A DNA stretch of 64,000 nt from Acidobacteriota bacterium (GTDB lineage: Bacteria; Acidobacteriota; UBA6911; RPQK01; CBDAPI01): contig CBDCBX010000020.1 in the NCBI GenBank assembly GCA_965214465.1, positions 554,363 to 618,362 of the forward strand. Direction: 5' to 3'. The first letter of the stretch is position 1, and each line of letters begins with the position of its first letter. The position numbers and the translations under genes are program-made. This document shows positions 5,694 to 43,272 of this stretch, piece after piece. The notes beneath the pieces were generated by a model, which ran no database searches, was not told the origin of the DNA, and was given only the letters and a program-made list of their open reading frames with translations.

Positions 5694-6767
5694 TCAGAGC
5701 CCCAGCCCGGGGATGATTCGGCGGGCGTTCCCGCTGTAAAACTTCTCCAGCACCGCCCTGGGGAGTTCCAGGCATTCCACTTTTCGCCCGGCCATTTCCA
5801 CCGTTCCCGAACCCGCGTAGTACTGGAAATCCTTTCGGTACTGAGCTTCAGCACGCTGCACAAAGGCGTCGATTTCCTCCTGAGAACGATCACCCTCGCC
5901 GGGTCCGAACCCCAGGTCGTAGCCGTAGAGAATTCGGTCCTGGTACTTGATGAAGAAATTACGAACCTTCTCCCTGGGCTGGCGGGTCAGGTCCTTGGTG
6001 CGGGCGGCAACTTCCACGTGAAAGTTGGGAAAAAGATCCAGTCTTTTAGCGACCTCGTCTACGTCGTGGGAAAGCGAGCCGATGTGAGCGCCGATCACGG
6101 TCAAATCCGGGTGTTTTTCCAGAATGTGGTCGCGGGCAGCGATGATCTGCTCGTGCGAGGGAACGCCCTTTTTCGTGTAGAAGTGCCACTCGGGGTTGTT
6201 GGAGTAATAGCCGTAGTGAGTGTTGTCCGGATGCAGTGGTCGCCAGGCTTCGAGGGGTTCCGCCAGGTGGGCGATGAGCGGCTTTCCCCGCAGCCTCAGA
6301 TGATCGTAGATGGGGTCGAAAACCGGATCGTCCGGCATCAAAAAAGACCCGTCGGGTTGCTTCACCTCCATCCCGATTTCCTTCCAGATCTTGGTCATGA
6401 CCGCTCCGGCTTCGAAGGATCGATCGAGCCACTTCCTGACCTGATCGTGGTAGTCCTCCTCGTCACGGCGGGTGACGTCAAAGGTCGAAGCAAAGGCAAA
6501 CAGATCGGGGAACTTGCGATGGGCGTCCTCCACCAGTGCCTCCGCCCGGGGGAGCCATTGCGGGATCGTGCCCCGGGTGCAGATGTTGATGATCCGGAGG
6601 TTGATCCGCCTCATCATGTCCACGAATTCGGGAACCGGCTCGAAGATGTGAGAGTGCACATCAATCTTGACGATCTCGTCAATCCGGGGCGGCGCCGGCG
6701 CGGGAGGCGCCGCGGCCGCCATGACCTGAATCGACGCCATCACGAATACGAATCTAAGTTTTCTCAT
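5694..6767 (-). CDS. metal-dependent amidohydrolase-family protein, secreted
   Basis: 357 aa. Signal-like N-terminus MRKLRFVFVMASIQVMAAAAP. HSHIFEP metal-binding motif typical of amidohydrolase-2-type TIM-barrel hydrolases. Confidence 0.65.
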   Translation of the reverse strand: MRKLRFVFVMASIQVMAAAAPPAPAPPRIDEIVKIDVHSHIFEPVPEFVDMMRRINLRIINICTRGTIPQWLPRAEALVEDAHRKFPDLFAFASTFDVTRRDEEDYHDQVRKWLDRSFEAGAVMTKIWKEIGMEVKQPDGSFLMPDDPVFDPIYDHLRLRGKPLIAHLAEPLEAWRPLHPDNTHYGYYSNNPEWHFYTKKGVPSHEQIIAARDHILEKHPDLTVIGAHIGSLSHDVDEVAKRLDLFPNFHVEVAARTKDLTRQPREKVRNFFIKYQDRILYGYDLGFGPGEGDRSQEEIDAFVQRAEAQYRKDFQYYAGSGTVEMAGRKVECLELPRAVLEKFYSGNARRIIPGLGL

Positions 6768-9806: not shown

Positions 9807-10150
9807 GCAACCAGTCTAACACGGGAGGATTCGAATTCCGGAAGAGTGGGCGGTGCCTCAGTGCGGCGATCCCCGGCCCCAACCCGGCATCTTCGCAAGC
9901 GACTGCGCAGAGGCGTTCAGTCACCGGAATCACCTCGCCGGAGACGGTTTTTGCGAAAGTGTACATTTGTTGTTGCCTTATGTAATCCGGTGTGGGATGA
10001 TCCCCTTCGTACCCGAAAGAGGCTGTTAGTTTACGTCGCTCAGGAGGTTGGCGTGCGTTCGAGAGGCTGGGTGACGAGTCCTTCCATCAACTGCTGATCC
10101 TTGCATAAATCCAGAATTTAGAATCTGCAATCCAGGATTGCAAATAGAGT

Positions 10151-10214
10151 TCCCCACCCCCGCCCCGCAAGGGGCGAACACTAAAGCCGGGGCTTCCCCG
10201 CCCCGGCTTTTTTT
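10151..10214 (+). terminator. two-hairpin intrinsic-terminator-like repeat unit, copy 1
   Basis: CCCCGCCCC-GCAA-GGGGCG hairpin with GNRA loop, then GCCGGGGC-TTCC-GCCCCGGC hairpin (10186-10207) followed by a 7-T run. Nearly identical unit at 11411-11477. Confidence 0.5.
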
Positions 10215-10327
10215 GCCCGGTTCCCCACTCAATCGGCCCGCAAGGCCGCAAGGAACGTCCACCAGGCAATTAAGCCGCAGAGGCAGGAGCTTTAAGCGAC
10301 TGCGTCCGGCCGCAGGCCGCGTTCGGA

Positions 10328-10750
10328 CTATCCTCTCGCTTGCTCTTCGAGCAGCCTGAGCAGATGCGCTGTCGTGTAGCATTGGATCCCACTGATCTGG
10401 AGATCGCGGTCGTTAGACCAGAGAGGCAGGTCAAGAGACCGAGCCAGGGCCAGTGGATGGGCATCGTCGGTGTCGCGTGTTCTCAAGAGCTCAGTGGCCC
10501 AGTCAAAGTGTTCAGCGTAAAAGTCAGCCGGGTGGACATCCACAGGCAGGATGCGCAACTGAAGCCGCACCTCATGTTGGGACAGTTCATACTTTGCAGA
10601 GAGACGCGGCAAATAGCGCTCCACTTCCAGGAGGTTGAACTCCGTGGTGTGAACCTGGAGGGCGTGATCAGTGAACACTCGAAGTGCCGCTTTGCCGATG
10701 ATGGCCGAAAGCAGGACGTTGGCATCAGCGACGACGGCAGCGATGGGCAT
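10328..10750 (-). CDS. vapC: type II toxin, PIN-domain ribonuclease VapC
   Basis: 140 aa. PIN-like acidic residues (VVADANVLL ... D ... D). Overlaps the upstream antitoxin by 26 nt. Confidence 0.75.
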   Translation of the reverse strand: MPIAAVVADANVLLSAIIGKAALRVFTDHALQVHTTEFNLLEVERYLPRLSAKYELSQHEVRLQLRILPVDVHPADFYAEHFDWATELLRTRDTDDAHPLALARSLDLPLWSNDRDLQISGIQCYTTAHLLRLLEEQARG

Positions 10751-10985
10751 CGAAATCCTCTTGGACGTCCTCCTCAGTAACGCCCTTAGATCTGAGTTCC
10801 TGATCTAGATAACGTCCCAGAACCCCCGCCAGCTCCCGCCGCAGGTCGTCCGGGATCCGATTCGGCTGGTCGAGAGGCAAATACAGGCCCGAAATCTTGC
10901 CGTGGCGAGTAATCAAGACGGGCTCGTGGCCTCCAAATAGCGAAGCCATCTGAGATCGGACCTTGCGAATTCCTGCAATCTTCAT
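10725..10985 (-). CDS. vapB: type II antitoxin, Phd/YefM-like (VapB)
   Basis: 86 aa. LFGGHEPVLITRHGKISGLYLP resembles the Phd/YefM antitoxin core. Coupled to the PIN toxin. AT-richer region upstream (10990-11220). Confidence 0.65.
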   Translation of the reverse strand: MKIAGIRKVRSQMASLFGGHEPVLITRHGKISGLYLPLDQPNRIPDDLRRELAGVLGRYLDQELRSKGVTEEDVQEDFDAHRCRRR

Positions 10986-11410: not shown

Positions 11411-11477
11411 CCCCAACCCCGCCCCGAAAAAGGGGCGAACACTAAAGCCGGGGCTTCCCCGCCCCGGCTTTTTCTTT
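11411..11477 (+). terminator. two-hairpin terminator-like repeat unit, copy 2 (group II intron insertion site)
   Basis: Same unit as 10151-10214. Hairpin 11447-11468, T-run 11469-11477. The intron 5' end GTGCG starts at 11478. Confidence 0.55.
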
Positions 11478-17979: not shown

Positions 17980-18072
17980 CCCCTCGAGAGAAACGACGGT
18001 CCTGAATCACGGGATGGACTCGATGCTTCTCACCTCTTCAAGGAAGTTTTGGCCATTGTAAACGGGGAGGTC

Positions 18073-19847
18073 TGATTGGCGACAGTTAGAATTTCCCACG
18101 TATTGCCTCACTAAGAATCGAACCCAGTTCCGAACAGCTTATTGGTTCCTTACATCAGAAACAACGGGGCGACCGGAGCCGGACCCGCTTCGCGATCTTC
18201 TGCCGGAGCAACTGGGCGAGATTGGAACCCGATTTCGGAGGCTGTCGGCTCCACGCGAGCGATCTCGGCCTTGTAGAGCTGCTCCCTACGCCAGTCCCTC
18301 ACCCGTCGCTGCAGCGTCCGCAGTTGCCCATCGAAGAACCGACCGGGATAGCGTTGCTGAAGGCGAACGAAAAGCGCTTTGGCGGTTTGAGCGGGATTAA
18401 CTTCCAGTTGGACACGAACCTCTGGCCAGACTTCAGCAAAGGGATCCTTTCGAGTCCTCCATGTCCGGGGCTTTTTCGTCCGCCGATATCTTCTGATCTC
18501 TTTGGGTTCTTGTGAAGCGGTGATCTCGACAAGATACTTCCTGACGATTGCATCCATCTCTCTGGGGGAGTCGTTCCCTTCCAGTTCCCTTTGTCCGTTA
18601 GCAAAGGTCCAAAAATAGTCTTGGCGTCGCTCGAGCTCTTTGAGTAAGATCACCGGATCGAGCTTCCGGTAAAAACGCTCGATTCGCTCCCTCTTTCGCT
18701 TGGTGAGATAACCAGAAGCAATGATGCGCTGGTAAGGAGTTTGAGCTCGATCGTAGCGCTTCTTGACGCGTGCGCCGACGCGCTGCTTTTCGATCAGCTT
18801 CATCGAGGGCTGAAAGAAGTTCACATAGAGGCGTAGAATCTCATAAAGCTGAATCAGGGCCCGCCAGGCCCCCAGTCCCTCGTAGCGATCGTACCCGATC
18901 AGCCTTCTCACGACAGAGCCGTTCTTCTCTTCCACAAAGGCCTGATCGTTCTTTCGATTGACCCGGGAACGAGTGAAAGTGATCTGCTCTCTTTGGCAGT
19001 AGCGAAGCATCTCATAGTTGATGAACTCGCTGCCGTTATCCGTATCCAATCCCAGCAAAGGAACCGGGAGCCGGCCACGCAGGGAGTTCAGGGCGCCGAT
19101 CACGTCGGCTTCGCTGCGCCGCAGCAGGGCCACGCACTCGGTCCAGCCCGTTGCGACGTCCACCAGGACCAGCGTGTGCAGAAAACTACCGGCAGCACTG
19201 ACGCCGCAGTGAGCGACCAGGTCCGCTTCCAGAAACCCGGGTTGAAGATCGTCCCAGTCGGCGAAGGTCCGTACCTTGATCTGCTTTTTGAGTAAGCTTC
19301 CCGGCCGGGTTGTACTCACACCACGCTGATTGATTCTCTCGGTGGCCAGCAATCGATCAGCGGTGGCGGGGCTGATCGTCAGAAGCTTTCCCCGGACATC
19401 AGCGGGTAAGGACAAATGACCGTTCCTCTCCATCACCTCGATCAACTCGGGAAGAAAGGGAACCAGTCGCTTGGCGCAGATCCGGTTGGCCGTGGTCCAA
19501 AGGGTAACCAGTACCTGCTTGACTCGCTCATCGTATCGGGCGCGGCGGGGTCGCGAAGAACTAACGCTACCCGGCGGATTGTTCAACAGGGTAATGGCGT
19601 GTTTGCGACCGTAGCCGGTTGCCGCAACCAACTGATCCACGATCTGGCTCTTGATTCCTTTGCGGGCCGATGCGTAATCCTCCGCAGTGCGTGTCAACAA
19701 CTCTCGGCGCAACTCCAAACTCAACTTCTTCCTCAATTCGTCGCCTCCTCATCAAGTGTTCGGTTCGATTCTTGATGAGGCAACGGTCTCACATTAGTTC
19801 GATTTTGGATGAGTCAATGCGTGGGAAATTCTAACTGTCGCCAATCA
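18073..19847 (-). mobile_element. insertion sequence with DDE (rve) transposase, IS481/ISNCY-like
   Basis: About 46-bp imperfect terminal inverted repeats TGATTGGCGACAGTTAGAATTTCCCACG... at 18073 and the reverse complement at 19847 (TG...CA termini). Single 528-aa transposase ORF. No clear target-site duplication. Confidence 0.7.
18150..19736 (-). CDS. DDE-type integrase/transposase (rve core)
   Basis: 528 aa. N-terminal HTH region, catalytic core ...LGLDTDNGSEFIN.... Bounded by the IRs above. Confidence 0.75.
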   Translation of the reverse strand: MRKKLSLELRRELLTRTAEDYASARKGIKSQIVDQLVAATGYGRKHAITLLNNPPGSVSSSRPRRARYDERVKQVLVTLWTTANRICAKRLVPFLPELIEVMERNGHLSLPADVRGKLLTISPATADRLLATERINQRGVSTTRPGSLLKKQIKVRTFADWDDLQPGFLEADLVAHCGVSAAGSFLHTLVLVDVATGWTECVALLRRSEADVIGALNSLRGRLPVPLLGLDTDNGSEFINYEMLRYCQREQITFTRSRVNRKNDQAFVEEKNGSVVRRLIGYDRYEGLGAWRALIQLYEILRLYVNFFQPSMKLIEKQRVGARVKKRYDRAQTPYQRIIASGYLTKRKRERIERFYRKLDPVILLKELERRQDYFWTFANGQRELEGNDSPREMDAIVRKYLVEITASQEPKEIRRYRRTKKPRTWRTRKDPFAEVWPEVRVQLEVNPAQTAKALFVRLQQRYPGRFFDGQLRTLQRRVRDWRREQLYKAEIARVEPTASEIGFQSRPVAPAEDREAGPAPVAPLFLM

Positions 19848-19923
19848 GGGGGACAGGGTTCTCTCGGGTGGTGGGGCCGGCAGGTGCCAGGAAGGGACGT
19901 CAACTAGCGGAAATGACCCCGTG

Positions 19924-21486
19924 TCAGGATCCGGAGCCTGGCCGCCAGACGGTGAGGCCGCTCAGATCCTTGCCGTGTCGGCTTCCGATCAGAAGGCTGA
20001 CGGAATAGGCCACCCCAAAGAGAAGCAGATTGGCAAACGTGCTCACCCAGAAGTTGTCGGGCAGGGCTGCGGATAGGCAGGGGAAGAGTTCCCTACCAGG
20101 ATGGGTATCCAGAAACAGCCATCCGCCGACTGAGAGAACCGTTACTACTGTAGCAGTGATGGCCGCTCGGCTATCCACCCGGAAGGTGACGACACCCAGC
20201 AAGAACAAGCTGAGGAGACCTCCTCCGAGGATCGACAGAAACATTCTTGATAGATCGTCCAAGGTCTCAGACACTCGGTAAAAGTGGATCGTGCAAGCGG
20301 TGGTAATCATCACCAGGCTGAACAGCAGACTGATCAATCTTCCTACTTTGGCATAGTGACGGGGATCCCGATCCTTGGCCTTGACCCACAACCTTCGGTA
20401 GAAGTCGGTAGTCACGGTCGCTGCAGTGGCGTTGATGCTCGAGTCCAGTGTCGACATGGCGGAGGCGAGCAGTCCCGTCAAGACCAGCCCGGCAAGACCC
20501 GGCGGCAGCTGGGTCAGGATGAATCTCGGAAATACAGCGTCCGCCGCGAGTCCCTCCAGCCCGGTATTTGGTACCACTTTCACAAAGACGTAAAGAGCAG
20601 TACCCAGAAACAAGAAGTACGTCCATATCGGCACCGCCAGGCAGCAGCCGATGATGGCACCCCGGGTGGCGTCTTTGTCGCTCCTGGCGGCGGCGTAGCG
20701 TTGAACGCTCGTCTGGTCTGTACAGGCCAACCGCGCCAAGACCATGAATTCGGCGGCCAGGTAGGCCCAGACTGTCCTTCCCTGCAGAGTGAACTGCGGG
20801 TTGCCCAGGTCGAACTTGTTGTCAGCGGCGGCAATACTGAAAAGTTGAGCAAACCCGCCCGGCAGCTGCGAAACGATGATGGGCAGACACAACAGTCCTC
20901 CCCCGATCAGGGCGATTCCCTGGAAGACGTCCGTCCAGATAACGGCCTGGAGTCCTCCCATGATGGTGTAGGCAGAAACCAGGAATCCAGCGACGATGAT
21001 GATCAACGGCAGCGAGTTCTCGTCCGTCTGCAAGATGGATTGGATCGCTAACGAGACCGCGTAGAGAACAATCCCGGTGCGGAAGAAGTGAAAGAGCACG
21101 AAGCTCGCTGCTGCATAGATCCGCGCCCATAGACCGAATCTGCGTTCCAGGTACTCGTAGGCCGAATTCACGCGGGTCGAGCGGTACAAGGGAATAAACA
21201 AATAGACGGTGATCAAGACCGCTGGAATGTACATGAAGTGGGCAAAGAGGTTGCGCCAATTTGTCTCGCCGAAGGCAAAAGCGGGAATCCCAAGGAAGGT
21301 CATGGAGCTGACGGTAGTTGCCATCAAGGAGAAGCCCACCACCCAGCCGGGCATGGACCTGCCGGCAAAAAAGTAACCCTCATCAGTCTGACTGCGACGG
21401 GAGCAGAGAATCCCGATAAGGAGCAGCAGCAGGAAACCGAGGCCGATAATGATCTGGTCGAGCAATCGGATGTCGAGTCCAGGCAT
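19924..21486 (-). CDS. sodium:solute symporter (SSS) family transporter
   Basis: 520 aa polytopic. SSS-like topology and motifs (GRSMPGWVVGFSLMATTVS). Confidence 0.7.
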   Translation of the reverse strand: MPGLDIRLLDQIIIGLGFLLLLLIGILCSRRSQTDEGYFFAGRSMPGWVVGFSLMATTVSSMTFLGIPAFAFGETNWRNLFAHFMYIPAVLITVYLFIPLYRSTRVNSAYEYLERRFGLWARIYAAASFVLFHFFRTGIVLYAVSLAIQSILQTDENSLPLIIIVAGFLVSAYTIMGGLQAVIWTDVFQGIALIGGGLLCLPIIVSQLPGGFAQLFSIAAADNKFDLGNPQFTLQGRTVWAYLAAEFMVLARLACTDQTSVQRYAAARSDKDATRGAIIGCCLAVPIWTYFLFLGTALYVFVKVVPNTGLEGLAADAVFPRFILTQLPPGLAGLVLTGLLASAMSTLDSSINATAATVTTDFYRRLWVKAKDRDPRHYAKVGRLISLLFSLVMITTACTIHFYRVSETLDDLSRMFLSILGGGLLSLFLLGVVTFRVDSRAAITATVVTVLSVGGWLFLDTHPGRELFPCLSAALPDNFWVSTFANLLLFGVAYSVSLLIGSRHGKDLSGLTVWRPGSGS

Positions 21487-22026
21487 AGTTCTAGGGCGAC
21501 CTTAGCGCCTCAGCTCCGGTGTGGCTTGAGCCACTGCCCTATTTTGCTGGGATGCGGTCTCGATGACGCGCTCCAGTGTACCGGGTTCGAGCCGGTGTCG
21601 GAGACGGCAGGATCCCCGACGAATCCATTGCGAGGACCCAATTCCCCCCGCTGCTCCCGGCAGGAACACGCAGGGTGCGCCGGTGGCCTGCTCTAAGCCG
21701 AGATTCCCCATATCAGCCTCGGATCCGAGTTCCTCTGACCTGCCCATGACGAATACTCAAAACCTATCAGCCCTTCAACCAAGGAACAAGCGTTTTTCCT
21801 CATATTTCGGCCGAAAGTATTTGCGAACCTTCTTCTTCTCGTAGCGAGCCACGATTGGTTCCGCAGCCGCAGTCTACCCAGAATAGGCCCGCGGTCCTAA
21901 CATAGAGAGTGGACTCGGTTGTGGGGGTGGGTCACTCCCTCTGATTAATAAACAAAGTTGACACACCACTAGTCTCGTACGGCCCATTTTGTCGAACGCG
22001 TGCGGCTCAAGGACCGATGCAGGACA

Positions 22027-22167
22027 ATCGCTTTCCTGTAGGTGCCAAGTGTGTTCAAATCCTCGGGCGATGAACGAATCAATCTATCAGTGGGGAGTGG
22101 CTCATGCGAATTGAAGCCGTGGAAATGCTTGTTCAGCGGAGGGATAGAACCGAGAGGACATCCATCC
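22027..22167 (+). repeat. about 140-bp direct repeat, copy 1 (5' UTR plus first 22 codons of the hypothetical gene at 27084, truncated here)
   Basis: About 92% identical to 27008-27151. Encodes MRIEAVEMLVQRRDRTERTSIP then terminates. Confidence 0.7.
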
Positions 22168-22323
22168 CGGTCGTACCCAGGTAAGAAGTACGTAGACCCT
22201 CGTCATTCGTCATTCGGTAGACAGAAGGGCCTCGGCGATGTATAGTCAATGTATATCCGTGAATGATGACCGGGCCAGCGGCTCGGGACCTCTGGAGTTG
22301 CTCTCTCGCAGAGGAGGACCCTG

Positions 22324-22566
22324 ATGCGGACTAAGATTCAGAAATGGGGCAACAGCCTCGGCCTCCGAATTCCAAAGTCCTTTGCTGAAGAAGCCGGGGT
22401 TAGGGCCGGATCCAAGGTCGATCTCTCGGTGGAAGACGGTGAATTGATCGTCCGTCCGGCCCGGGTACCGAGATACAATCTGAAGGACCTGCTGCAAGGC
22501 GTTTCTGCCCGGAATCTCCACAAGGCGGTAGAGACCGGTGAAACTGTCGGTCTGGAAGTCTGGTAA
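22324..22566 (+). CDS. mazE: type II antitoxin MazE (SpoVT/AbrB fold)
   Basis: MRTKIQKWGNSLGLRIPKSFAEEAGV... swapped-hairpin antitoxin signature. GAGGAGG RBS. Start of mazF overlaps the stop. Confidence 0.75.
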   Translation: MRTKIQKWGNSLGLRIPKSFAEEAGVRAGSKVDLSVEDGELIVRPARVPRYNLKDLLQGVSARNLHKAVETGETVGLEVW

Positions 22567-22910
22567 TGGCCAAGGCCTATGTTCCGGATCGCGGCGATAT
22601 CGTGTGGCTCCAATTCGATCCGCAGGCCGGACACGAGCAAGCTGGACGCAGGCCGGCATTCGTCGTGTCGCCACGTGCCTACAACCGTAAGGTCGGCCTG
22701 GCTCTGTTCTGCCCCATCACCTCGCGAGTGAAAGGCTATCCCTTCGAAGTTCTGCTCCCGAAGGGAGGCAAAGCCCGCGGCGCTATCCTTTCCGACCAAT
22801 TGAAGAGCCTTGATTGGCGGGTGCGGGAGGCTGCTCGGTTCGATCGTGCATCCGAGGAAGTCGTTCTCGAGGTCACTGCGCGACTCATTGCGCTGGTGCA
22901 TCCTGAATGA
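22566..22910 (+). CDS. mazF: type II toxin MazF/PemK endoribonuclease
   Basis: PDRGDIVWLQFDPQAGHEQAGRRPAFVVS...CPITS: PemK/MazF signature. Confidence 0.8.
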   Translation: MAKAYVPDRGDIVWLQFDPQAGHEQAGRRPAFVVSPRAYNRKVGLALFCPITSRVKGYPFEVLLPKGGKARGAILSDQLKSLDWRVREAARFDRASEEVVLEVTARLIALVHPE

Positions 22911-23276
22911 AGGATACGGGGGTAGCGCCTGTACCCTGGCGATCGCCGCCCTTGCCTCCGGTTGCGATCAACAGCCCGAAGCGGGCCAGGTCCTTGGCGC
23001 TCATAACCGCCCAACCGGGTCCGCCCCGCACGACTTGTCCGTGACCGAAATTGACAAGAAGGTGGTCGGAGACGGAGCGACGGGAGATCTCACCAGGCGG
23101 CTCATCCAACTCTATGACGAGGAGGTCAAGAAGGGCGAGCCGGTCAATGTGGAATGAGTCTTGGCGGGCTCGCGGGTAGGTCTCGCCGAGCCATACCGCC
23201 GATACCTGACCCGGCTTGCCTTCGCTACCCTCCGGGGCTATTATCGCAACTCAAATCAGCGTACACTCGGGGCGGT

Positions 23277-24068
23277 ATGGCGGGAACAGACAAGACTTCG
23301 GAAAAGTCGAGAAAGTACGTCATCCCCGCGGTGGAAAAGACCTTCGCTATCCTCGAGTTTTTTGCCACCGACGGCGGAGCCCACTCCATCTCGGAGATGA
23401 GCCGTCTCATGAAACTCCCCCTCAGCTCCATCAATACGCTGCTTCGATCGCTCGAGTATTGTGGCTACCTGACTCGCGAGGGCGAGACGAGGGGGGCCTT
23501 TCGACTCTCCGGCAAGATCCTGGCGCTGGCCCACAGAGCGCAAGGTCAGATCAACCTGGCCGCCATCGCCGGGCCCTCTTTAGACTCGGTCCGTGATGAC
23601 ACCGGCCTGACCGCCATCCTGGCGGTTCTGGAAGGGGATCATGTCGTCTATCTTGTCAAGTCCCAGGGTGTGACACAGGTCCAGCTCAACGCCTACGTGG
23701 GAAAAAGCTTGCCCCTGCACTGTTCGACGACAGGGAGGGCGATCCTGGCCTACTTGCCCCCTGCAGAGAGTGATGTCCTCCTCAGGAGCATCAAATTGAG
23801 ACGCATGACCCCCTATACAATCACTTCCAAAGCTGAGCTAAGAGCCGATCTCGAAAGAATCAGGCAAAGAGGTTACGCCGAAGACAAGGAGCAGTACGCG
23901 CGGGGAATTCAGGCGGTCGGTGCTCCTGTTTTCGACCATTCCGGGCACGTCCCCTGTGCGGTCGCCATAGCGGGCGGCATCTTCGATTTCCGGGGTAAGG
24001 GAAGGATCCTCGCCCGCCGGCTCAAGCAGTGCGCCGAGGAGATCTCCAAGCGCCTGGGCAGTCCTTAG
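23277..24068 (+). CDS. IclR-family transcriptional regulator
   Basis: N-terminal wHTH (VEKTFAILEFFA...HSISEMSRLMKLPLSSINTLLRSL) and C-terminal effector domain. ATG chosen at 23277; the ORF-track start at 23154 is an upstream extension. Confidence 0.75.
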   Translation: MAGTDKTSEKSRKYVIPAVEKTFAILEFFATDGGAHSISEMSRLMKLPLSSINTLLRSLEYCGYLTREGETRGAFRLSGKILALAHRAQGQINLAAIAGPSLDSVRDDTGLTAILAVLEGDHVVYLVKSQGVTQVQLNAYVGKSLPLHCSTTGRAILAYLPPAESDVLLRSIKLRRMTPYTITSKAELRADLERIRQRGYAEDKEQYARGIQAVGAPVFDHSGHVPCAVAIAGGIFDFRGKGRILARRLKQCAEEISKRLGSP

Positions 24069-24510
24069 CTTCGATCACCTTTCGATCCGCCACCCGGCCC
24101 AGCGTCTGGCCGAACGTTATCGAAGTAGGACTTCAGATCCACGTCCAGCACCCGGGCTTTGTTCTCCGCAAGCTTCTATCTGCCCGCGTTTCCACTCAAT
24201 CCACGATGGTCTGGATGACTCGGAAAATCCAGTCGCGGTCTCCTTGATATTGAGAACCGAAGTAGGCGGACCCGTGTACCGCTCGTTTGATTTTGGTCAT
24301 TTAGAGGTTCTTGGTTCTCAGTGGTACTTATAAAATCGAGCAACTATTCATAATGTTCTGAGAATCGAGTCAAGTTCTTGTGCCTGCCTGCTGGGCGAGG
24401 CCGGACAACCCTTCTTGACTCCGCAGCGAGCAAGGTTTCAGGTGTTCACTGCTGACAAATCGAGTCATGCATCACAAGCGGTTTGGGCCCGACGGTGGGT
24501 AGTTCTTGCC

Positions 24511-25365
24511 TCAAGACTCGAGACTCTGCGTGAAGCTTCGGATTCCATCCCTTAACAGACTGATTTCGCTGGGACCCTCAAAAAAGCGGACTCCGAGTCT
24601 GCGGAGCTCGACAATGGTTTCCGGGTCAAGCCCATTGGAACCCACAACCACTTCGCTCTCTTGGCAGGCGTTACAAATGCGCTCCATAGCGTGTATCACC
24701 ACAGGGCTATTCAGTTCTCCTGGGGTTCCCAACTCGATGGACAGGTCAAAGGTTCCGACGTAGCACACATCGACTCCGGGGCAGGCGACAATTTCTTCGA
24801 TGTTCTCCAGCCCCGCGCGCGTCTCGACATGAGCGATGATAGCCAACTCCTCATTGAGTTTTTTCATGTGATCTAAGGCATGCAGCGGCACATAATCCGC
24901 ACTTGCCATGCCCGTAACTCCCGCACGCGTCCCCTCGGGTGGATACTTCGAGAGTTCGATGAATCGGGTGACATCCGAGGCGCTCTCTGTTCGAGGGAGT
25001 TGAATTCCAGAGATGCCAGCCTCCAGAATCTTGCCGATCAGGTGACGATAGAGATCTGGAGTCTTCATCACGACCGGGAGACCGTTGTCCCGCGCGCAGA
25101 TGACAAAATCATTTAAGTTGGCGGGATCCATCAAGCCGTGTTCGTACTCGACATAGACGAAATCAAAACCACCTTGCTTGTAGAGTTTGACCAGAGCTGG
25201 CCTCATGTACTCCATCACGGTGGCACCCACGAGCAGGTCTCTTTCTTTCAACAAGCGCTTGAGTGTAACCATACGTACCGCCCCGTCAAATTCCGCGGTG
25301 ATGGACAGGGCCTTCTCGATGGGCTGCGTCAGAGTAAAGCTGATGCGTCCCCCGTCTAAGCACAC
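24511..25365 (-). CDS. HpcH/HpaI-family aldolase (2-keto-3-deoxy-acid aldolase / citrate-lyase-beta-like)
   Basis: 284 aa. TIM-barrel aldolase motifs (FDFVYVEYEHG ... DVCYVGTFDL). Confidence 0.7.
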   Translation of the reverse strand: MCLDGGRISFTLTQPIEKALSITAEFDGAVRMVTLKRLLKERDLLVGATVMEYMRPALVKLYKQGGFDFVYVEYEHGLMDPANLNDFVICARDNGLPVVMKTPDLYRHLIGKILEAGISGIQLPRTESASDVTRFIELSKYPPEGTRAGVTGMASADYVPLHALDHMKKLNEELAIIAHVETRAGLENIEEIVACPGVDVCYVGTFDLSIELGTPGELNSPVVIHAMERICNACQESEVVVGSNGLDPETIVELRRLGVRFFEGPSEISLLRDGIRSFTQSLES

Positions 25366-25481
25366 GGGGATGTTGCCAGAAAACGGGGGGTAAATCCAGT
25401 TAGAATCATTTGTTCGCCCTTCAATCTCGTCCGGCTCGGTGTGACAGACTCCGCAGGCAGCGACTCGTACCAGGCCTTCTC

Positions 25482-26933
25482 CCTAGCAGCCCGTGGTGAA
25501 AGTCGCCTCTCGGTCAGCCATGGCCAATAGACTTGTGCCATGTCGATGGGCAAGCGTAAGAGACAGAGGCAGAGCGAGATGTGGGTGCCGGCAACAGAGC
25601 TGGCCAAAGCGCCGGGACACCCTTTTTACCAACGCCTGAACCGAGTGCTGGGCAAGCACGGTTTCGATGATTTTGTGGAAGCGGAATGCGCCGCTTTCTA
25701 TGCCCCCAGCCGAGGGCGGCCCGGCCTGGCACCGGGCATCTATTTCCGGCTGCTGCTGGTGGGTTACTTCGAAGGGTTGAGCTCGGAGCGAGGCATTGCC
25801 TGGCGAGCCGCTGATTCGCTGGCGCTGCGCGGTTTTCTGGGACTGAATCTGAGTGAGTCACCTCCGGATCATTCGACCATCTCCAGGACCAGGCGACTGA
25901 TCGATGTGGCCACGCATGAGGCGGTTTTCTCCTGGGTGCTGAAGCGGGTAGCCGAGAGCGGGTTATTGAATGGCAAGACGATCGGCATCGATGCCACCAC
26001 GCTGGAAGCCAATGCGGCGCTGCGCAGCATCGTGAGACGAGACTCCGAGCAGGGCTACGAAGAGTTCTTAACGGAGCTGGCAGTAGCCTCCGGCATCCAG
26101 ACGCCTACTCGAGAAGATCTGGCCCTACTGGACCGCAAGCGAACCGGCAAGGGATCGAACCAGCAGTGGAAGCACCCGCAGGATGGGGATGCGCGCATCG
26201 CCAGGATGAAGGATGGGCGGACGCATCTGGCGCACAAGGCAGAGCATGCAGTGGATCTGGAGACGGGAGCCATCGTCTCGGTCACGGTGCAAGGAGCGGA
26301 TCGAGGCGATACGCAAACGATGGTCAAGACACTGATACAGGCGGCCGAGCAGGTGGAACAAGCGCTGCCGAAGGGATCGGGCATCGAAGAGGTGGTGGCC
26401 GACAAGGGATATCACAGCAGCGAGCGGATGGTGGATTTAGAAGCGCTGGGACTGCGCAGCTATGTGAGCGAACCGAAACGAGGGAAAAGACGCTGGAGAG
26501 GAGACACTCAGGCCCGTGATGCGGTCTATGGGAACCGGCGACGAATCCGGGGTCGGCGAGGACGGCAACTTTTACGACAACGAGGTGAGCTACTGGAGAG
26601 ACCGTGTGCTCACCTTTACGAGACCGGCGGGATGAGACGGGTTCACGTTCGGGGCCATGAGAATGTCTTGAAGCGGCTGCTGATTCAGGTGAGCGGATTC
26701 AATCTGGGGCTGCTGATGCGCCAGCAGTTGGGTGTGGGCACGCCGCGGGGGCTGCAGGGGCGGATTTGCCTCGTCTTGCTCCTCATTTTGTCGCTGTGGA
26801 AGCGTCTGAAGGGCCTGTTTGGCTTGATTCCGACCGCCCAGACTCAAAAGTCCCGGTCAACGCTCCCGTCGCTTCTGCCACCGGTCCGCTCGGTCTGAAG
26901 TCTGAAAACCTATTTGCACCACGGGCTGCTAGG
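25482..26933 (+). mobile_element. IS5/IS1182-like insertion sequence
   Basis: Terminal IRs CCTAGCAGCCCGTGGTG (25482-25498) and the reverse complement at 26917-26933. Single transposase ORF. A solo copy of the right end recurs at 43230-43272. Confidence 0.65.
25540..26898 (+). CDS. IS5/IS1182-family DDE transposase
   Basis: 452 aa. N-terminal region (FYQRLNRVLGKHGFDDFVE, InsH-N-like) and DDE_Tnp_1-like core (IGIDATTLEANA ... ADKGYHS). Confidence 0.75.
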   Translation: MSMGKRKRQRQSEMWVPATELAKAPGHPFYQRLNRVLGKHGFDDFVEAECAAFYAPSRGRPGLAPGIYFRLLLVGYFEGLSSERGIAWRAADSLALRGFLGLNLSESPPDHSTISRTRRLIDVATHEAVFSWVLKRVAESGLLNGKTIGIDATTLEANAALRSIVRRDSEQGYEEFLTELAVASGIQTPTREDLALLDRKRTGKGSNQQWKHPQDGDARIARMKDGRTHLAHKAEHAVDLETGAIVSVTVQGADRGDTQTMVKTLIQAAEQVEQALPKGSGIEEVVADKGYHSSERMVDLEALGLRSYVSEPKRGKRRWRGDTQARDAVYGNRRRIRGRRGRQLLRQRGELLERPCAHLYETGGMRRVHVRGHENVLKRLLIQVSGFNLGLLMRQQLGVGTPRGLQGRICLVLLLILSLWKRLKGLFGLIPTAQTQKSRSTLPSLLPPVRSV

Positions 26934-27007
26934 ATCGGGTACCGGCAACCCTGCCAATCCCAAAGGGATCTCGACCTCTTTGAGAGAAACAATCTTCTTG
27001 AGCACCA

Positions 27008-27151
27008 TTGCTTTCTTATAGGCGCCAAGTGTGTTCAAATCCTGGGGCGATGAACGAATCAATCTGTCAGTGGGGAGTGGCTCATGCGAATTGAACCCGT
27101 GGAAATGCTTGTTCAGCGGAAGGACAGAACCGAAAGGACATCCATCCCCAT
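27008..27151 (+). repeat. about 140-bp direct repeat, copy 2 (native 5' region of the gene at 27084)
   Basis: See 22027-22167. Confidence 0.7.
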
Positions 27152-27830
27152 TGGATCTGTGGCAGGAGCGCGATATTCTTCTCGAGACGTGGCCGGCATG
27201 CGCAAGCAAATCGACGCAATGCTGGCCCGCGGCGAGGCTGGAACTAAGACCAATCCGGCGATCTTCCACATCGGTCGCTACCTGCTGACTCAAGCGGTCG
27301 AATTTGAAGTGCAAGGTCCGCTGACCGGTGGAGAGGCTGAAATTGTGGCCATCCGAGACGGGAACGACATCTTTATCTCGGTGGGCAGCGACCAGTGTGA
27401 CCGGGAATTAGATCCCCTCTTTCAAGATAAGCCCAAGCAGATGTGTCCGCATCCCATTGGCTCCACGGCTTGGGTCTACAGCGATGTCCAGGACCACTGG
27501 GATAGCCTGAGAATATCCAGCCAGGTGACGGTTGGAGAACACGTCTTGCCTCTTCAAGACTGCGCCGCCTCTGAGTTGGTTGACCTGGAATATCTTCTGG
27601 CGATGAAGGATGTGCAGTCACTGATCCTTCCATCGTTTCTCTATTGTGGCGCCGTGCCGTTTCTGGACTCGGTAGCCCAGGCCGTCGAGGACTATTCTGT
27701 CCCCGAAGAGACCCGCCACGGCGTCGGCGACGCTTTCCTGGCCCGGTTGCACGACCCCGTGCTGAATCGGACGATCGAACATCGCTACCGGGCTGTTCCG
27801 GTTGGAGATGATTTAGCGGAAAGGCGCTGA
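27084..27830 (+). CDS. hypothetical protein (no family recognised by eye)
   Basis: 248 aa, soluble, reasonable composition. Its first 22 codons and upstream region are duplicated 5 kb upstream. Confidence 0.5.
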   Translation: MRIEPVEMLVQRKDRTERTSIPIGSVAGARYSSRDVAGMRKQIDAMLARGEAGTKTNPAIFHIGRYLLTQAVEFEVQGPLTGGEAEIVAIRDGNDIFISVGSDQCDRELDPLFQDKPKQMCPHPIGSTAWVYSDVQDHWDSLRISSQVTVGEHVLPLQDCAASELVDLEYLLAMKDVQSLILPSFLYCGAVPFLDSVAQAVEDYSVPEETRHGVGDAFLARLHDPVLNRTIEHRYRAVPVGDDLAERR

Positions 27831-27869
27831 CTCAAGAATCTCGGGCCAACCTGGGCACGCGCCCCCCAA

Positions 27870-28514
27870 TTAGTTCAACTTCCGGGTCGGAAGTTCACGT
27901 GAAACGGACCACTTGATGCGCGCATCGGGAAGAGGGACAGACGTGAAGAGATCACGCGCTATCCCCTGGATGGCTCCCTCAGCTGGCGAGATGGAGAAGT
28001 CCTGCTCCACAACGCCGGGCTCGGCGAGGTTGATTTGTTCTTCGATGGCTGTGTAGCCGGCTTTGAATGCCACAGCCCAACCTCGGAGATGCGCTTCCGA
28101 GTGAAGTCTGTAGTACCCCTGCAGGTTTGATGAGGCTTCCAGTACTACTTCCTCAAATTCCTCCGTCACTGGGTCCCTGGAGTCGTAGAAGCAAACCGTC
28201 GCCCCGGCAAGGGGCTCCTCATGTCCGGCGGACAGAATGTGGCCCTCGATCACGAAATCCTGGAACGGAGAAGACCATCTCCTCAGGTCTTGTAGCTTTC
28301 GTCGAAAGACCGGATCAAGCCTCGAAGCGGGTGACCCTGCTTCCGTCGTCCCTTTACTTTCAAGATGGTCTCTTGGATCAACCCTGGTCTGGTGGGGCCC
28401 CGCGGGCTGGAGCTTCGTGCCAAGCCCCCAATCCGGACCAATGAAGAGCACTCCAATGACCAGAAGGAGACAGGTCACGAGCGCGATCACCAGATATCTA
28501 CTCATGGTCTCCAA
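27870..28514 (-). CDS. membrane-anchored hypothetical protein with carboxypeptidase-regulatory-like beta-sandwich
   Basis: N-terminal TM (YLVIALVTCLLLVIGVLFI). ...ATVCFYDSRDPVTEEFEEVVLEASSNLQGYYRL resembles CarboxypepD_reg folds. Confidence 0.4.
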   Translation of the reverse strand: METMSRYLVIALVTCLLLVIGVLFIGPDWGLGTKLQPAGPHQTRVDPRDHLESKGTTEAGSPASRLDPVFRRKLQDLRRWSSPFQDFVIEGHILSAGHEEPLAGATVCFYDSRDPVTEEFEEVVLEASSNLQGYYRLHSEAHLRGWAVAFKAGYTAIEEQINLAEPGVVEQDFSISPAEGAIQGIARDLFTSVPLPDARIKWSVSRELPTRKLN

Positions 28515-28873: not shown

Positions 28874-29032
28874 GGTGATGCCCACTACGAGAAGGTCCGT
28901 CGCCAGGGCAGCATTCAGGATGTGGCTGTCTTGAAAGCGACCGGCGTGAACTGCTGGGGCAAGCGGGAGGTGATTGGTATCAGCTGCGGCTCATCACCGC
29001 TGTCGTCGAGGAGATTCACGAAGACTGGCTGA
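28874..29032 (+). pseudogene. IS256-family (mutator-type) transposase internal fragment
   Basis: GDAHYEKVRRQGSIQDVAVLKATGVNCWGKREVIGIS matches the IS256 transposase core (DATY.KVR..G.V...AVL.A.GV..DG.REVLG). Frame breaks after it; no start and no ends. Confidence 0.45.
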
Positions 29033-29398
29033 TCGGCAAGCAGTACCTCAGCCTGGTCGATTTCAAACCACAGGAGAATCCCGTCTCGGAACTCTCTCAG
29101 TCAAATTACAGAAAAACAGTTGCGTAGCCTAACCCACCCACCTGGCAATCCATACCCCCTTGACCGGGGTGAGAGGGCAGGACACTCCTCGTCTCCCCTT
29201 CCACCCACGATTAACTCTGGCCCCGTAGGGCGGTAGCGCACTTCGCCCAGAGCAATTGACTGCTCTGGTGATCTCCCATAGTCTCTACTGACAGACTTAA
29301 TCTGGGAATGATCCGAGTTGGTTGCGTTACAGCCCGCCGCTGGTACTCCCTCGGCTGCCCGGGGTGCCCCCGGAAGGATTTGTAAAGGAGAACAAGTC

Positions 29399-42839: not shown

Positions 42840-43229
42840 CGGTATCTATTCTTGGCCATCTCGCCTGGGTGTGCAAACCGCTTGTCGCTACCGCGCAGGC
42901 ATACAGCATCGAAAACCATCGACCAAGGGCTTTTTATTGGGGACTCAGAGGGGATCACGATCACTCCAGATGGAGAGCTGGTCTATGTGCAAACACCAAA
43001 GAATCAGGCTCGGCTCTGCTCGGCGCGCTTGTTGGCTGGGGCGATCTCTTCAGGCTCTGTCCTGGCCGGCGGCAAGGGCGGCAAGCCAGACAAGGGAACA
43101 CCAGCCAGCTTCACCGTCCTCTTCAGCGGCGAGGTCTCGAGCAGCAATCTCCTGGGAGATTGCTCGGGGAACCGCATAACTAACAGATCGAACAAGATCG
43201 GGCAACTTCGTCGACACCGCTCTAGCGGT

Positions 43230-43272
43230 CTGAAGTCTGAAAACCTATTTGCACCACGGGCTGCTAGGCGTG
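43230..43272 (+). repeat. solo copy of the IS5/IS1182-like right terminal sequence
   Basis: CGGTCTGAAGTCTGAAAACCTATTTGCACCACGGGCTGCTAGG is identical to 26891-26933. No transposase adjacent. Confidence 0.55.

What the first reader, a model, noticed from the sequence alone, without database searches (positions are those of the whole stretch)
22027..27151. 4.8-kb island (MazEF, IclR regulator, HpcH aldolase, IS5/IS1182-like IS) bracketed by about 140-bp direct repeats that duplicate a gene's 5' end
Copy 2 (27008-27151) is the native promoter/5' UTR plus first 22 codons of the hypothetical gene 27084-27830. Copy 1 (22027-22167) is 92% identical but runs into unrelated sequence and a stop. The directly repeated gene-5' duplication looks like the product of a site-specific or homologous insertion/cointegrate resolution rather than simple IS transposition. 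No integrase is present, so the mobilising function is missing or lost. The island could be lost by recombination between the repeats.
Basis: seen in the sequence. Interest (0 to 1): 0.6.

Follow-up and report, generated by a model that had tools for sequence, protein, structure and literature searches.

The report
Rearrangement scar around a duplicated gene start
The two repeats are real, but they mark an ordinary recombination scar in a transposon-rich, heavily reshuffled chromosome region. A gene's start was duplicated and one copy decayed to a stub; this is not a mobile island that lost its integrase.

Summary
The repeat is confirmed: 22021-22168 and 27001-27148, 148 nt, 92% identical, and the only two copies in the window. 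By origin the duplication is 139 nt (22030-22168 / 27010-27148).

Three assemblies carry the two-copy form.

The interpretation needs correcting in three ways.
- Copy 1, not copy 2, sits in the ancestral upstream context.
- The left edge of copy 2 is an illegitimate joint. The start codon of a truncated alcohol dehydrogenase gene is fused to position -74 of DUF2848 through a shared GCTTTC.
- The "island" is not a coherent element. It is a patchwork: a mazEF cassette, an IclR gene, an HpcH gene, stubs of three other resident genes, and a later insertion sequence (IS).

One stub is the 3' end of an aminotransferase gene. In the sister lineage that gene lies 5 kb downstream of DUF2848 in the same orientation, which suggests rearrangement in place.

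Most likely the DUF2848 unit was duplicated through microhomology and the original copy then decayed. A single-crossover integration or excision is the main rival. There is no evidence for site-specific recombination. This is ordinary and of low interest.

The parts
19924..21486 (-). Sodium:solute symporter gene (520 aa). It is the left flank, in the ancestral context.
   Evidence: Pfam SSF, E=8e-41. Window 19848-22168 is collinear with L020 7779-10065 at 96.6%.
21487..22029 (.). Ancestral intergenic region upstream of DUF2848. It includes 21993-22029, which is also found upstream of the intact gene in L002.
   Evidence: Base-by-base alignment with L020 and L024. Match to L002 9890-10065.
22030..22168 (+). 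Copy 1: promoter region plus 21.7 codons of DUF2848. It is a dead stub left at the original site. The remnant ORF 22104-22184 has 26 codons.
   Evidence: It shares the derived T at +41 with L020.
22169..22223 (.). 55 nt of unknown origin just right of junction J1 (22168|22169).
   Evidence: No match in the 39 loci.
22224..22913 (+). mazEF toxin-antitoxin cassette (mazE 22324-22566, mazF 22566-22910) with its own promoter-like site at 22218-22246.
   Evidence: Pfam MazE_antitoxin and PemK_toxin. 90.6% identical to L027 4365-5058 in an unrelated context, with sharp edges. Promoter scan.
23036..23163 (+). 3' stub of a class IV aminotransferase gene.
   Evidence: 98.4% identical to L020 15687-15814, the end of an intact Aminotran_4 gene. 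That gene lies 5 kb downstream of DUF2848 in the same orientation.
23277..24068 (+). IclR-family regulator gene (263 aa).
   Evidence: Pfam HTH_IclR and IclR_C. NCBIfam PcaR/PcaU-like, below the cut-off. Gene call in L001.
24199..24291 (-). 3' stub of a beta-lactamase-family gene.
   Evidence: 76 nt at 98.7% identity to L002 1345-1420 and L026 2961-3036. 87% amino-acid identity to residues 360-390 of that 392-aa protein.
24276..25445 (-). HpcH/HpaI aldolase segment (gene 24511-25365).
   Evidence: Pfam. 97.95% identical to L033/L034 11192-10023 from the sister lineage, where it lies in a different context without DUF2848.
25412..25481 (-). Inner piece of the 5' stub of a zinc alcohol dehydrogenase gene, left of the IS.
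   Evidence: Window 25412-25482 matches L021 4833-4903 at 88.7%. It translates as the continuation of the dehydrogenase N-terminus.
25482..26933 (+). IS1182/IS5-like insertion sequence (transposase 25540-26898). It is a separate, later insertion inside the dehydrogenase stub.
   Evidence: 20-nt inverted ends, 95% complementary. Pfam DUF772 and DDE_Tnp_1. NCBIfam best hit is IS1182. CTAG at both ends. L021 has the uninterrupted site.
26934..27015 (-). Outer piece of the alcohol dehydrogenase 5' stub, reaching its first codons. 27010-27015 (GCTTTC) is the microhomology of junction J2.
   Evidence: Window 26932-27015 matches L021 4911-4994 at 94%. In L021 the start codon follows GCTTTC directly.
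27010..27148 (+). Copy 2: the duplicated promoter and 5' end that heads the intact gene.
   Evidence: It differs from L020 at 8 of 139 positions, against 9 of 664 positions at +84 to +747 of the gene body.
27084..27830 (+). Intact DUF2848 gene (248 aa).
   Evidence: Pfam PF11010. 68-95% amino-acid identity to homologues in 18 related genomes.

Best explanation
The repeats are the scar of ordinary recombination in a chromosome region that is being reshuffled. They are not the ends of a mobile element.

The ancestral order, still present in the sister lineage, was: symporter(-), intergenic region, DUF2848(+), about 4 kb of other genes, aminotransferase(+).

In the window's lineage I propose three steps.
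1. A second copy of the DUF2848 unit (from -74 through the stop codon) was created. It was joined to the start codon of a truncated alcohol dehydrogenase gene by illegitimate recombination at a GCTTTC microhomology (junction J2). The simplest route is a tandem duplication of the stretch from DUF2848 to the dehydrogenase.
2. The original copy then lost everything from codon 22 to near the end of the aminotransferase gene (junction J1). A mazEF cassette now sits in that gap.
3. An IS later landed in the dehydrogenase stub.

The net result is that DUF2848 moved about 4.8 kb to the right, leaving a 139-nt stub (copy 1) at the old place. No recombinase is needed. The two copies remain a possible substrate for RecA-type deletion; the longest identical run is 29 nt.

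Shown:
- both junction positions
- the microhomology at J2
- the un-rearranged allele
- the mosaic nature of the cargo
- the separate IS insertion

Inferred:
- the order of events
- that the duplication was tandem
- that the sister lineage never had the duplication

I put about 0.85 on the general claim (a recombination scar, not an island) and about 0.5 on this particular path.
For: 1. The un-rearranged allele exists. L020, L024 and L039, from three samples, have symporter, 583 bp, then intact DUF2848. Window 19848-22168 and 27010-27830 map onto them contiguously, overlapping by 139 nt.
2. Copy 1 is the copy in native context. It has 2.3 kb of collinear upstream DNA in L020, and it shares a further 37 nt upstream of the duplication (21993-22029) with the intact L002 gene.
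3. J2 is a microhomology joint. Window 26932-27015 is the first 28 codons of a zinc alcohol dehydrogenase, as seen in L021. Both parent sequences share GCTTTC exactly at the switch point, and 10 of 12 bases around it.
4. The cargo is a patchwork with at least eight internal breakpoints, including stubs of three genes.
5. Collinearity. The aminotransferase stub (98.4% identical) lies between the copies. In the sister lineage the intact gene lies 5 kb downstream of DUF2848 in the same orientation. This would be an odd coincidence for an inserted foreign element.
6. The cargo is resident DNA. The HpcH segment is 97.95% identical and the aminotransferase stub 98.4% identical to sister-lineage DNA, as close to it as the flanks and gene body are (96.6-97.7%).
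7. There is no integrase, and the only IS has its own CTAG flanks and its own empty site.
8. The region is a rearrangement hot spot. Thirteen more distant genomes keep synteny over +-10 kb around DUF2848. The window, L020, L021 and L002/L026 each have different flanks.
Against: 1. A tandem duplication needs two further deletions, one in each copy. No second copy of the cargo is left in the window to prove it.
2. The two copies differ at 9 of 139 positions (6.5%), while copy 1 differs from L020 at only 5. Copy 1 and L020 share a derived T at +41 that copy 2 lacks. Differences between the window gene and L020 are concentrated at -74 to +83 (10 of 19; Fisher p=0.001). This fits better if the duplication predates the split from the sister lineage, which then lost it by crossover. 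It also fits if copy 2's start came from elsewhere.
3. What follows the aminotransferase gene differs between the window (IclR) and L020 (an AMP-binding enzyme gene). The proposed ancestral order to the right of that gene is therefore not documented.
4. The partner sequence of J1 is unknown, so no microhomology can be checked there.
Confidence: 0.55

Rival explanations
1. Single-crossover (Campbell-type) or homology-facilitated integration. A DNA segment already carried the dehydrogenase stub fused to a DUF2848 5' end. It came from a co-occurring relative or from elsewhere in the same genome, possibly after circularisation. It recombined with the resident DUF2848 gene inside the shared 139 nt, or with one homologous and one illegitimate end. 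The reverse crossover would delete it again.
For: - The occupied and single-copy alleles differ exactly as substrate and product of one crossover inside the repeat.
- Copy 2's start is unusually divergent from the sister lineage, while the gene body right of about +84 is 98.6% identical. This is what a recombination tract ending there would give.
- Related lineages co-occur in the same samples: the window type and the L020 type are both in ERZ25074053 and in ERZ28669063.
- A chimeric DUF2848 allele (P0129) exists.
- In E. coli, single crossovers with circular molecules gave duplications of 109-950 bp of the homologous segment (PMC3240628).
- Homology-anchored insertion that leaves stubs has been proposed for type VI secretion effector-immunity arrays (PMC5361080).
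Against: - The cargo (HpcH segment, aminotransferase stub) is as close to the sister lineage as the rest of the genome, about 2% divergent. It is not about 6% divergent like copy 2's start, so a divergent donor for the whole block is unlikely.
- The aminotransferase stub is collinear with the sister lineage's gene order.
- This model only pushes the origin of the fused 5' copy back one step.
- No donor arrangement was found in any locus.
Confidence: 0.3
2. One-step replicative template switching. Replication ran through DUF2848 to +65. It jumped to 22169 at another locus and copied 4.8 kb up to the dehydrogenase start. It then jumped back to -74 through the GCTTTC microhomology and replicated -74 to +65 a second time.
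For: - An insert flanked by a duplication of the resumption interval, with microhomology at the return junction, is the expected product.
- It needs only one event.
Against: - It predicts a second copy of the 4.8-kb template elsewhere in the genome. This could not be checked beyond the 64-kb window, which has none.
- The insert itself contains many older breakpoints.
- The divergence between the two copies is larger than expected for a recent copy.
Confidence: 0.08
3. A site-specific integrative island. Its attachment site lies in the 5' end of DUF2848, it carries a replacement 5' end, and its integrase has been lost.
For: - Direct repeats flank a block that includes a toxin-antitoxin pair.
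- A single-copy site exists in relatives.
- A second lineage (L002/L026) also has a 5' stub of the same gene about 4 kb upstream of the gene.
Against: - There is no tyrosine or serine recombinase between the repeats. The nearest rve-domain protein (18150-19736) belongs to an IS with its own 52-nt inverted ends, outside the repeats.
- The left edge of copy 2 is a fusion with another gene's start codon at a microhomology.
- The cargo is made of resident gene stubs.
- The second lineage's repeat has different edges (-57 to +84, against -74 to +65), lies next to IS ends, and carries different cargo.
- The block is unknown on plasmids and phages.
Confidence: 0.03

Closest known systems
Tandem duplication followed by loss of complementary parts (the duplication-random-loss route to gene-order change, best known from mitochondrial genomes; from my own knowledge)
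   Same: - A junction joins a downstream point to an upstream point through microhomology.
- One copy of the gene survives and the other is reduced to a stub.
- The gene ends up on the other side of its former neighbours, in the same orientation.
   Different: - No intermediate with two full copies was seen.
- The surviving second copy has also lost everything downstream.
- A toxin-antitoxin cassette and an IS were added.
Campbell-type single-crossover integration, and homology-facilitated illegitimate recombination (PMC3240628; PMC5361080 and references therein)
   Same: - A direct duplication of the shared segment (139 nt here; 109-950 bp in the E. coli experiments) flanks the extra DNA.
- An allele with one copy exists.
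- One junction is illegitimate.
   Different: - No donor molecule is known.
- The cargo looks resident rather than foreign.
- The direction (gain or loss) is unresolved.
Integrative genomic islands that carry a replacement gene end (for example islands in the 3' ends of tRNA genes; from my own knowledge)
   Same: - A partial gene duplicate brackets the extra DNA, and the target gene stays intact.
   Different: - There is no integrase.
- The repeats are 93.5% identical rather than sharing an exact core.
- The repeat edge is a gene fusion at a microhomology.
- The cargo is a mosaic of stubs.
- The block is not found as a unit elsewhere.
Orphan stubs in rearrangement hot spots such as Rhs and type VI effector-immunity arrays (PMC5361080)
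   Same: - Repeated displacement leaves truncated gene ends next to an intact copy.
- Two lineages here have independent 5' stubs of the same gene.
   Different: - Those arrays keep a constant 5' part and orphaned 3' parts under selection for immunity.
- Here the stub is a 5' end with no evident function, and the gene is a metabolic protein of unknown function.

Membership tests
Site-specific integrative island | An integrase or recombinase gene is present at one end. | tested here: not met
   ORFs and Pfam hits between 22169 and 27000 are MazE, MazF, IclR, HpcH and a DDE transposase. The rve protein at 18150-19736 lies outside the repeats, in an IS with its own inverted ends.
Site-specific integrative island | The attachment repeats share an exact core, and their edges are set by the element. 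| tested here: not met
   There are 9 mismatches in 139 nt, and the longest identical run is 29 nt. Copy 2's left edge is a fusion to a dehydrogenase start codon at GCTTTC.
Site-specific integrative island | The same element is found as a unit at the same site, or elsewhere. | tested here: not met
   It is found only in the window's own lineage (L001, L025). Its pieces occur separately in L020, L021, L026, L027 and L033. The plasmid and phage collections match only mazF, at 73% identity or less.
Composite transposon or simple IS insertion | IS copies lie at both ends, or a short target duplication flanks the insert. | tested here: not met
   There is one IS, and it is internal (25482-26933) with CTAG at each end. 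Its unfilled site is seen in L021. The flanking duplication is 139 nt.
Campbell-type or homology-facilitated recombination product | A direct duplication of the homologous segment flanks the extra DNA, and an allele with a single copy exists. | tested here: met
   Window 19848-22168 and 27010-27830 map onto L020 7779-10747 with a 139-nt overlap.
Campbell-type or homology-facilitated recombination product | An identifiable donor molecule or donor arrangement exists. | tested here: not met
   No fetched locus has the dehydrogenase stub fused to DUF2848 except the window type itself.
Tandem duplication with later loss | The novel junction joins a downstream sequence to an upstream one at a microhomology. 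| tested here: inconclusive
   J2 has the microhomology. That the dehydrogenase originally lay downstream of DUF2848 is not documented. In L021 it lies 5 kb upstream.
Tandem duplication with later loss | The stub-bearing copy is collinear with the ancestral gene order. | tested here: met
   The order symporter, intergenic region, DUF2848 5' end, then aminotransferase 3' end is the same, in the same orientation, as in L020 and L039.
Type II toxin-antitoxin module (mazEF) | An antitoxin gene and a toxin gene are adjacent in one operon, each with the family domain. | tested here: met
   MazE_antitoxin E=4e-14 and PemK_toxin E=2e-26. The genes overlap at 22566. A 690-nt cassette is shared with L027. 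Activity was not tested.
IS1182/IS5-type insertion sequence | A DDE transposase, terminal inverted repeats and a target duplication are present. | tested here: inconclusive
   Pfam DUF772 and DDE_Tnp_1 are met. The NCBIfam IS1182 score is 176 bits against a cut-off of 270. The 20-nt inverted ends are met. CTAG at both ends is palindromic, so it cannot be told apart from part of the ends.

The most novel reading that the evidence does not exclude
Two lineages independently carry a ~140-nt stub of the same promoter and 5' end, 4-5 kb upstream of the intact gene and in the same orientation. In the window the stub spans -74 to +65; in L002/L026 it spans -57 to +84. In addition, the ~830-bp DUF2848 unit sits in four different contexts with nearly the same edges. 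This could mean that the start of this gene is a preferred recombination site for an unrecognised way of shuffling gene-sized units. Alternatively, the stub's promoter may have been captured and kept to drive the genes that now follow it (mazEF here, an aldehyde dehydrogenase in L026).
Probability: 0.07. Interest if true: 0.55.

Novelty: already known. Interest (0 to 1): 0.2.

Why it matters
There are three modest points.
- Repeat-bracketed blocks that contain a toxin-antitoxin pair and an IS should not be called mobile islands from sequence shape alone. Comparison with sister genomes showed which copy is native and that one repeat edge is a microhomology fusion.
- It documents, at base resolution, how a gene can change place in an IS-rich uncultured Acidobacteriota lineage through duplication and decay.
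- The two alleles co-occur in the same samples, so recombination between the repeats could be looked for directly in the reads.

Tried and rejected
- Dispersed repeat family: rejected. There are only two copies in the window, and one per locus in most relatives.
- Structured RNA or riboswitch in the repeat: no Rfam match at E<=1 over 21400-28000.
- N-terminally truncated gene variants: the 226-aa cluster members looked like genes lacking the first 22 codons (248-22). They are in fact C-terminal frameshift variants.
- Circle junction: the sequence left of the stub in L026 matches DNA downstream of DUF2848 in L002, which looked like a circle junction. It is the end of a small IS-derived inverted-repeat element, 169 nt long in L002 10755-10923.
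- IS as the cause of the repeat: rejected. The IS has its own flanks and its own empty site.
- Origin of the unassigned pieces (22169-22223, 22914-23035, 23164-23280, 24069-24198): no match in any fetched locus.
- Literature search for the organism name 'Versatilivorator': nothing found.
- Look-up of HpcH variant P0265: not on record.
- Direction of the event: I tried to decide between gain in the window lineage and loss in the sister lineage from substitutions. The signal rests on about ten sites and one shared derived base. I consider it unresolved.

Full report
**1. Observation**

The window holds one long direct repeat, 22021-22168 and 27001-27148. It is 148 nt with 12 mismatches, no gaps and a spacing of 4980. 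BLAST of either copy against the whole window finds only the other copy (E=4e-58), so it is not a dispersed family.

Copy 2 covers 83 nt upstream of the ATG at 27084 plus 21.7 codons of a 248-aa DUF2848 protein. Copy 1 keeps the ATG at 22104 but diverges inside codon 22 and stops after 26 codons.

Between the copies lie these genes:
- mazE and mazF
- an IclR-family regulator
- an HpcH/HpaI aldolase on the minus strand
- a 1452-bp IS with 20-nt inverted ends and a DDE transposase

GC content shows no step at the borders. The same structure is present at 99.8% identity in assemblies of two ENA samples (L001 and L025), so it is real.

**2. Relatives**

A scan of one genome per species found 18 loci with a DUF2848 homologue. 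They come from Acidobacteriota MAGs, several of them labelled Candidatus Versatilivoraceae.

Thirteen of these (L003-L016) keep the same neighbours over +-10 kb. The neighbours are DUF1549/1553 and DUF1501 genes upstream, and BNR-repeat and enolase-superfamily genes downstream. The window shares nothing with them but the gene itself.

The 90%-identity protein cluster of the gene has 11 members. Their contigs define four close lineages, and every one has different flanks:

| Lineage | Loci | Identity to the window gene region |
|---|---|---|
| Window type | L001, L025 | 99.8% |
| L020 type | L020, L024, L039 | 97.7% |
| L021 type | L021-L023 | 94.8% |
| L002/L026 type | L002, L026 | about 95% |

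The region is therefore a rearrangement hot spot in this clade.

**3. The single-copy allele**

In L020, L024 and L039, which come from three samples, the 520-aa symporter gene is followed by 583 bp and then the intact DUF2848 gene.

Window 19848-22168 aligns to L020 7779-10065 at 96.6%. Window 27010-27830 aligns to L020 9927-10747 at 97.7%. The two alignments overlap in L020 by 139 nt. The base-by-base alignment shows the window following L020 up to ...GGACATCCATCCC and then departing.

L024 comes from the same sample as L001. It is only 96.5% identical in the flank, so it is a different lineage and not an excision product of the window strain.

**4. Which copy is native**

Copy 1 is the native one. 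It is continuous with 2.3 kb of upstream DNA shared with L020. It also carries 37 further upstream bases (21993-22029) that precede the intact gene in L002. Copy 2 has neither.

**5. The right-hand junction (J2)**

Window 26932-27015 matches L021 4911-4994 at 94%, and window 25412-25482 matches L021 4833-4903. In L021 this is the N-terminal end of a zinc alcohol dehydrogenase gene on the minus strand (MKAMVLKEIVPLKEVE...). Its start codon follows GCTTTC directly.

The upstream region of DUF2848 also reads ...AATCGCTTTC... at -74. The switch between the two parents falls within this shared hexamer, and 10 of 12 bases around it agree.

J2 is therefore an illegitimate, microhomology-mediated fusion. 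The first 9 bases of the 148-nt repeat are dehydrogenase sequence. The true duplication is 22030-22168 / 27010-27148, which has 9 mismatches and a longest identical run of 29 nt.

**6. The IS is a bystander**

The IS sits inside the dehydrogenase stub with CTAG at each end. L021 shows the same stretch without it.

**7. The cargo is a mosaic**

| Coordinates | Content | Evidence |
|---|---|---|
| 22169-22223 | unknown origin | |
| 22224-22913 | mazEF cassette with its own promoter-like site; 90.6% identical to L027 in an unrelated setting, with sharp edges | |
| 22914-23035 | unknown origin | |
| 23036-23163 | last 128 nt of a class IV aminotransferase gene; 98.4% to L020 | |
| 23277-24068 | IclR regulator | |
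| 24199-24291 | last ~30 codons of a beta-lactamase-family gene that is intact in L002/L026 | |
| 24276-25445 | HpcH aldolase segment; 97.95% to the sister lineage's copy, which lies at another locus with no DUF2848 nearby | |
| 25412-25482 and 26932-27015 | dehydrogenase stub, split by the IS | |

In more distant lineages HpcH follows a malate synthase gene. The block as a whole is absent from the plasmid and phage collections; only mazF matches, at 73% identity or less. No integrase is present.

**8. Mechanism**

Two facts favour rearrangement in place over arrival of an element.
- The cargo pieces that can be compared are about 2% divergent from the sister lineage, no more divergent from it than the flanks and gene body are.
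- The aminotransferase stub lies to the right of copy 1 in the same orientation. In L020 and L039 the intact aminotransferase gene lies 5 kb to the right of DUF2848. The left half of the structure is thus the ancestral order with its middle deleted.

I therefore favour this path:
1. The DUF2848 unit was duplicated and joined to the dehydrogenase start through GCTTTC.
2. The body of the original copy was lost, together with its downstream neighbours, up to the aminotransferase 3' end.
3. mazEF came to lie in the gap.
4. The IS inserted later.

This needs several steps, and no intermediate was seen.

**9. What does not fit neatly**

- The two copies differ more from each other (9 of 139) than copy 1 differs from L020 (5 of 139).
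- Copy 1 and L020 share a derived T at +41.
- All three (copy 1, copy 2, L020) share an A at -64 against the other lineages.
- Of 19 differences between the window gene and L020 over -74 to +747, ten lie in -74 to +83 (Fisher p=0.001).

Relative to the window, L020 therefore looks like copy 1 on the left and copy 2's gene on the right. A crossover between the repeats would give this (loss in the L020 lineage after an older duplication). So would integration of a diverged 5' copy into an L020-like gene.

The numbers are small: P=0.06 for 9 differences against an expected 4.9. I cannot decide the direction.

The Campbell-type reading is a serious rival. It has an experimental parallel in E. coli, where single crossovers gave duplications of 109-950 bp (PMC3240628). 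It resembles the homology-anchored displacement proposed for effector-immunity arrays (PMC5361080).

**10. A second, independent stub**

L026 has a 142-nt direct repeat, 5988-6129 and 9943-10084, 98% identical and 3955 nt apart. It covers -57 to +84 of the same gene.
- Both copies begin at the same TAG next to IS ends.
- The cargo differs: a DUF1501 stub, an aldehyde dehydrogenase and an ISNCY-type IS.
- L002 is the same structure with a further IS cutting into the stub.

The different edges, the different cargo and the much higher identity between these two copies indicate a separate, more recent event. Recurrence at one gene start is the only feature here that might hide something unusual. 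I rate that as unlikely.

**11. Verdict**

- recombination rather than transposition: right
- a single-copy site in relatives: right
- loss through the repeats is possible: right
- which copy is native: wrong
- a lost mobilising function: wrong

The feature is an ordinary recombination scar in an IS-rich genome.

Noticed in passing
L026:5988-6129 and 9943-10084; L002:5899-6017 and 9966-10084: A second lineage has its own direct duplication of the DUF2848 promoter and 5' end (-57 to +84; 142 nt at 98% in L026). The copies are about 4 kb apart and lie next to IS ends. The cargo differs: a DUF1501 stub, an aldehyde dehydrogenase, and an ISNCY-type IS or an Nramp-like gene.
   Followed up: partly
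window 27010-27830 compared with L020, L021, L002 and L026 at about 9926-10758: The DUF2848 unit (about -75/-57 to about +750) is the only DNA shared between four close lineages within +-10 kb of the gene. Thirteen more distant genomes keep full synteny there. The HpcH gene shows the same gene-sized pattern (window 24506-25280 against L035).
   Followed up: partly
window 43226-43268: This is an exact 43-nt copy of the right end of the IS (26891-26933), with no transposase next to it. It looks like a solo IS end left by a deletion.
   Followed up: no
window 18072-19848: An IS with 52-nt inverted ends (88% complementary) and a 528-aa rve-domain transposase lies directly left of the symporter gene. 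Homology to L020 starts exactly at its right end (19848).
   Followed up: partly
window 28877-29129: These are degenerate pieces of an IS256-type element (90-93% identical to parts of the L020 copies), about 1 kb downstream of DUF2848. In L020 two identical 1335-nt copies in inverted orientation flank the symporter, DUF2848 and a 186-aa ORF.
   Followed up: no
window 21694-21867: Part of the symporter-DUF2848 intergenic region recurs at 87-88% identity next to and inside IS1380-like (DDE_Tnp_1_4) elements in L020 and L035. It is probably a remnant of such an element. It does not match the window's own copy at 56668-58325.
   Followed up: partly
window 56668-58325: An IS1380-like element is 94-96% identical to copies in L002, L021 and L033. 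The protein match is split (aa 68-93 and 89-512), which suggests a frameshift.
   Followed up: no
window 10169-10212 and 11430-11473: A perfect 44-nt direct repeat contains a GC-rich hairpin followed by a run of T (AAAGCCGGGGC...GCCCCGGCTTTTT). The copies are 1261 nt apart. They look like terminators.
   Followed up: no
proteins P0123, P0125, P0127, P0129 (L026 type): Several assemblies encode a 226-aa DUF2848 variant with a frameshift near residue 195. This is either real decay or long-read indel error. P0129 combines residues typical of L002 at the start with residues typical of the window in the middle; it may be a recombinant or a chimeric contig (940 bp).
   Followed up: no
L002:10755-10923: A 169-nt element with 37-nt inverted ends flanked by CTAG is inserted just after the DUF2848 stop codon. 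It is absent from L026. A partial copy lies at L002 4305-4376 and L026 5920-5993.
   Followed up: partly
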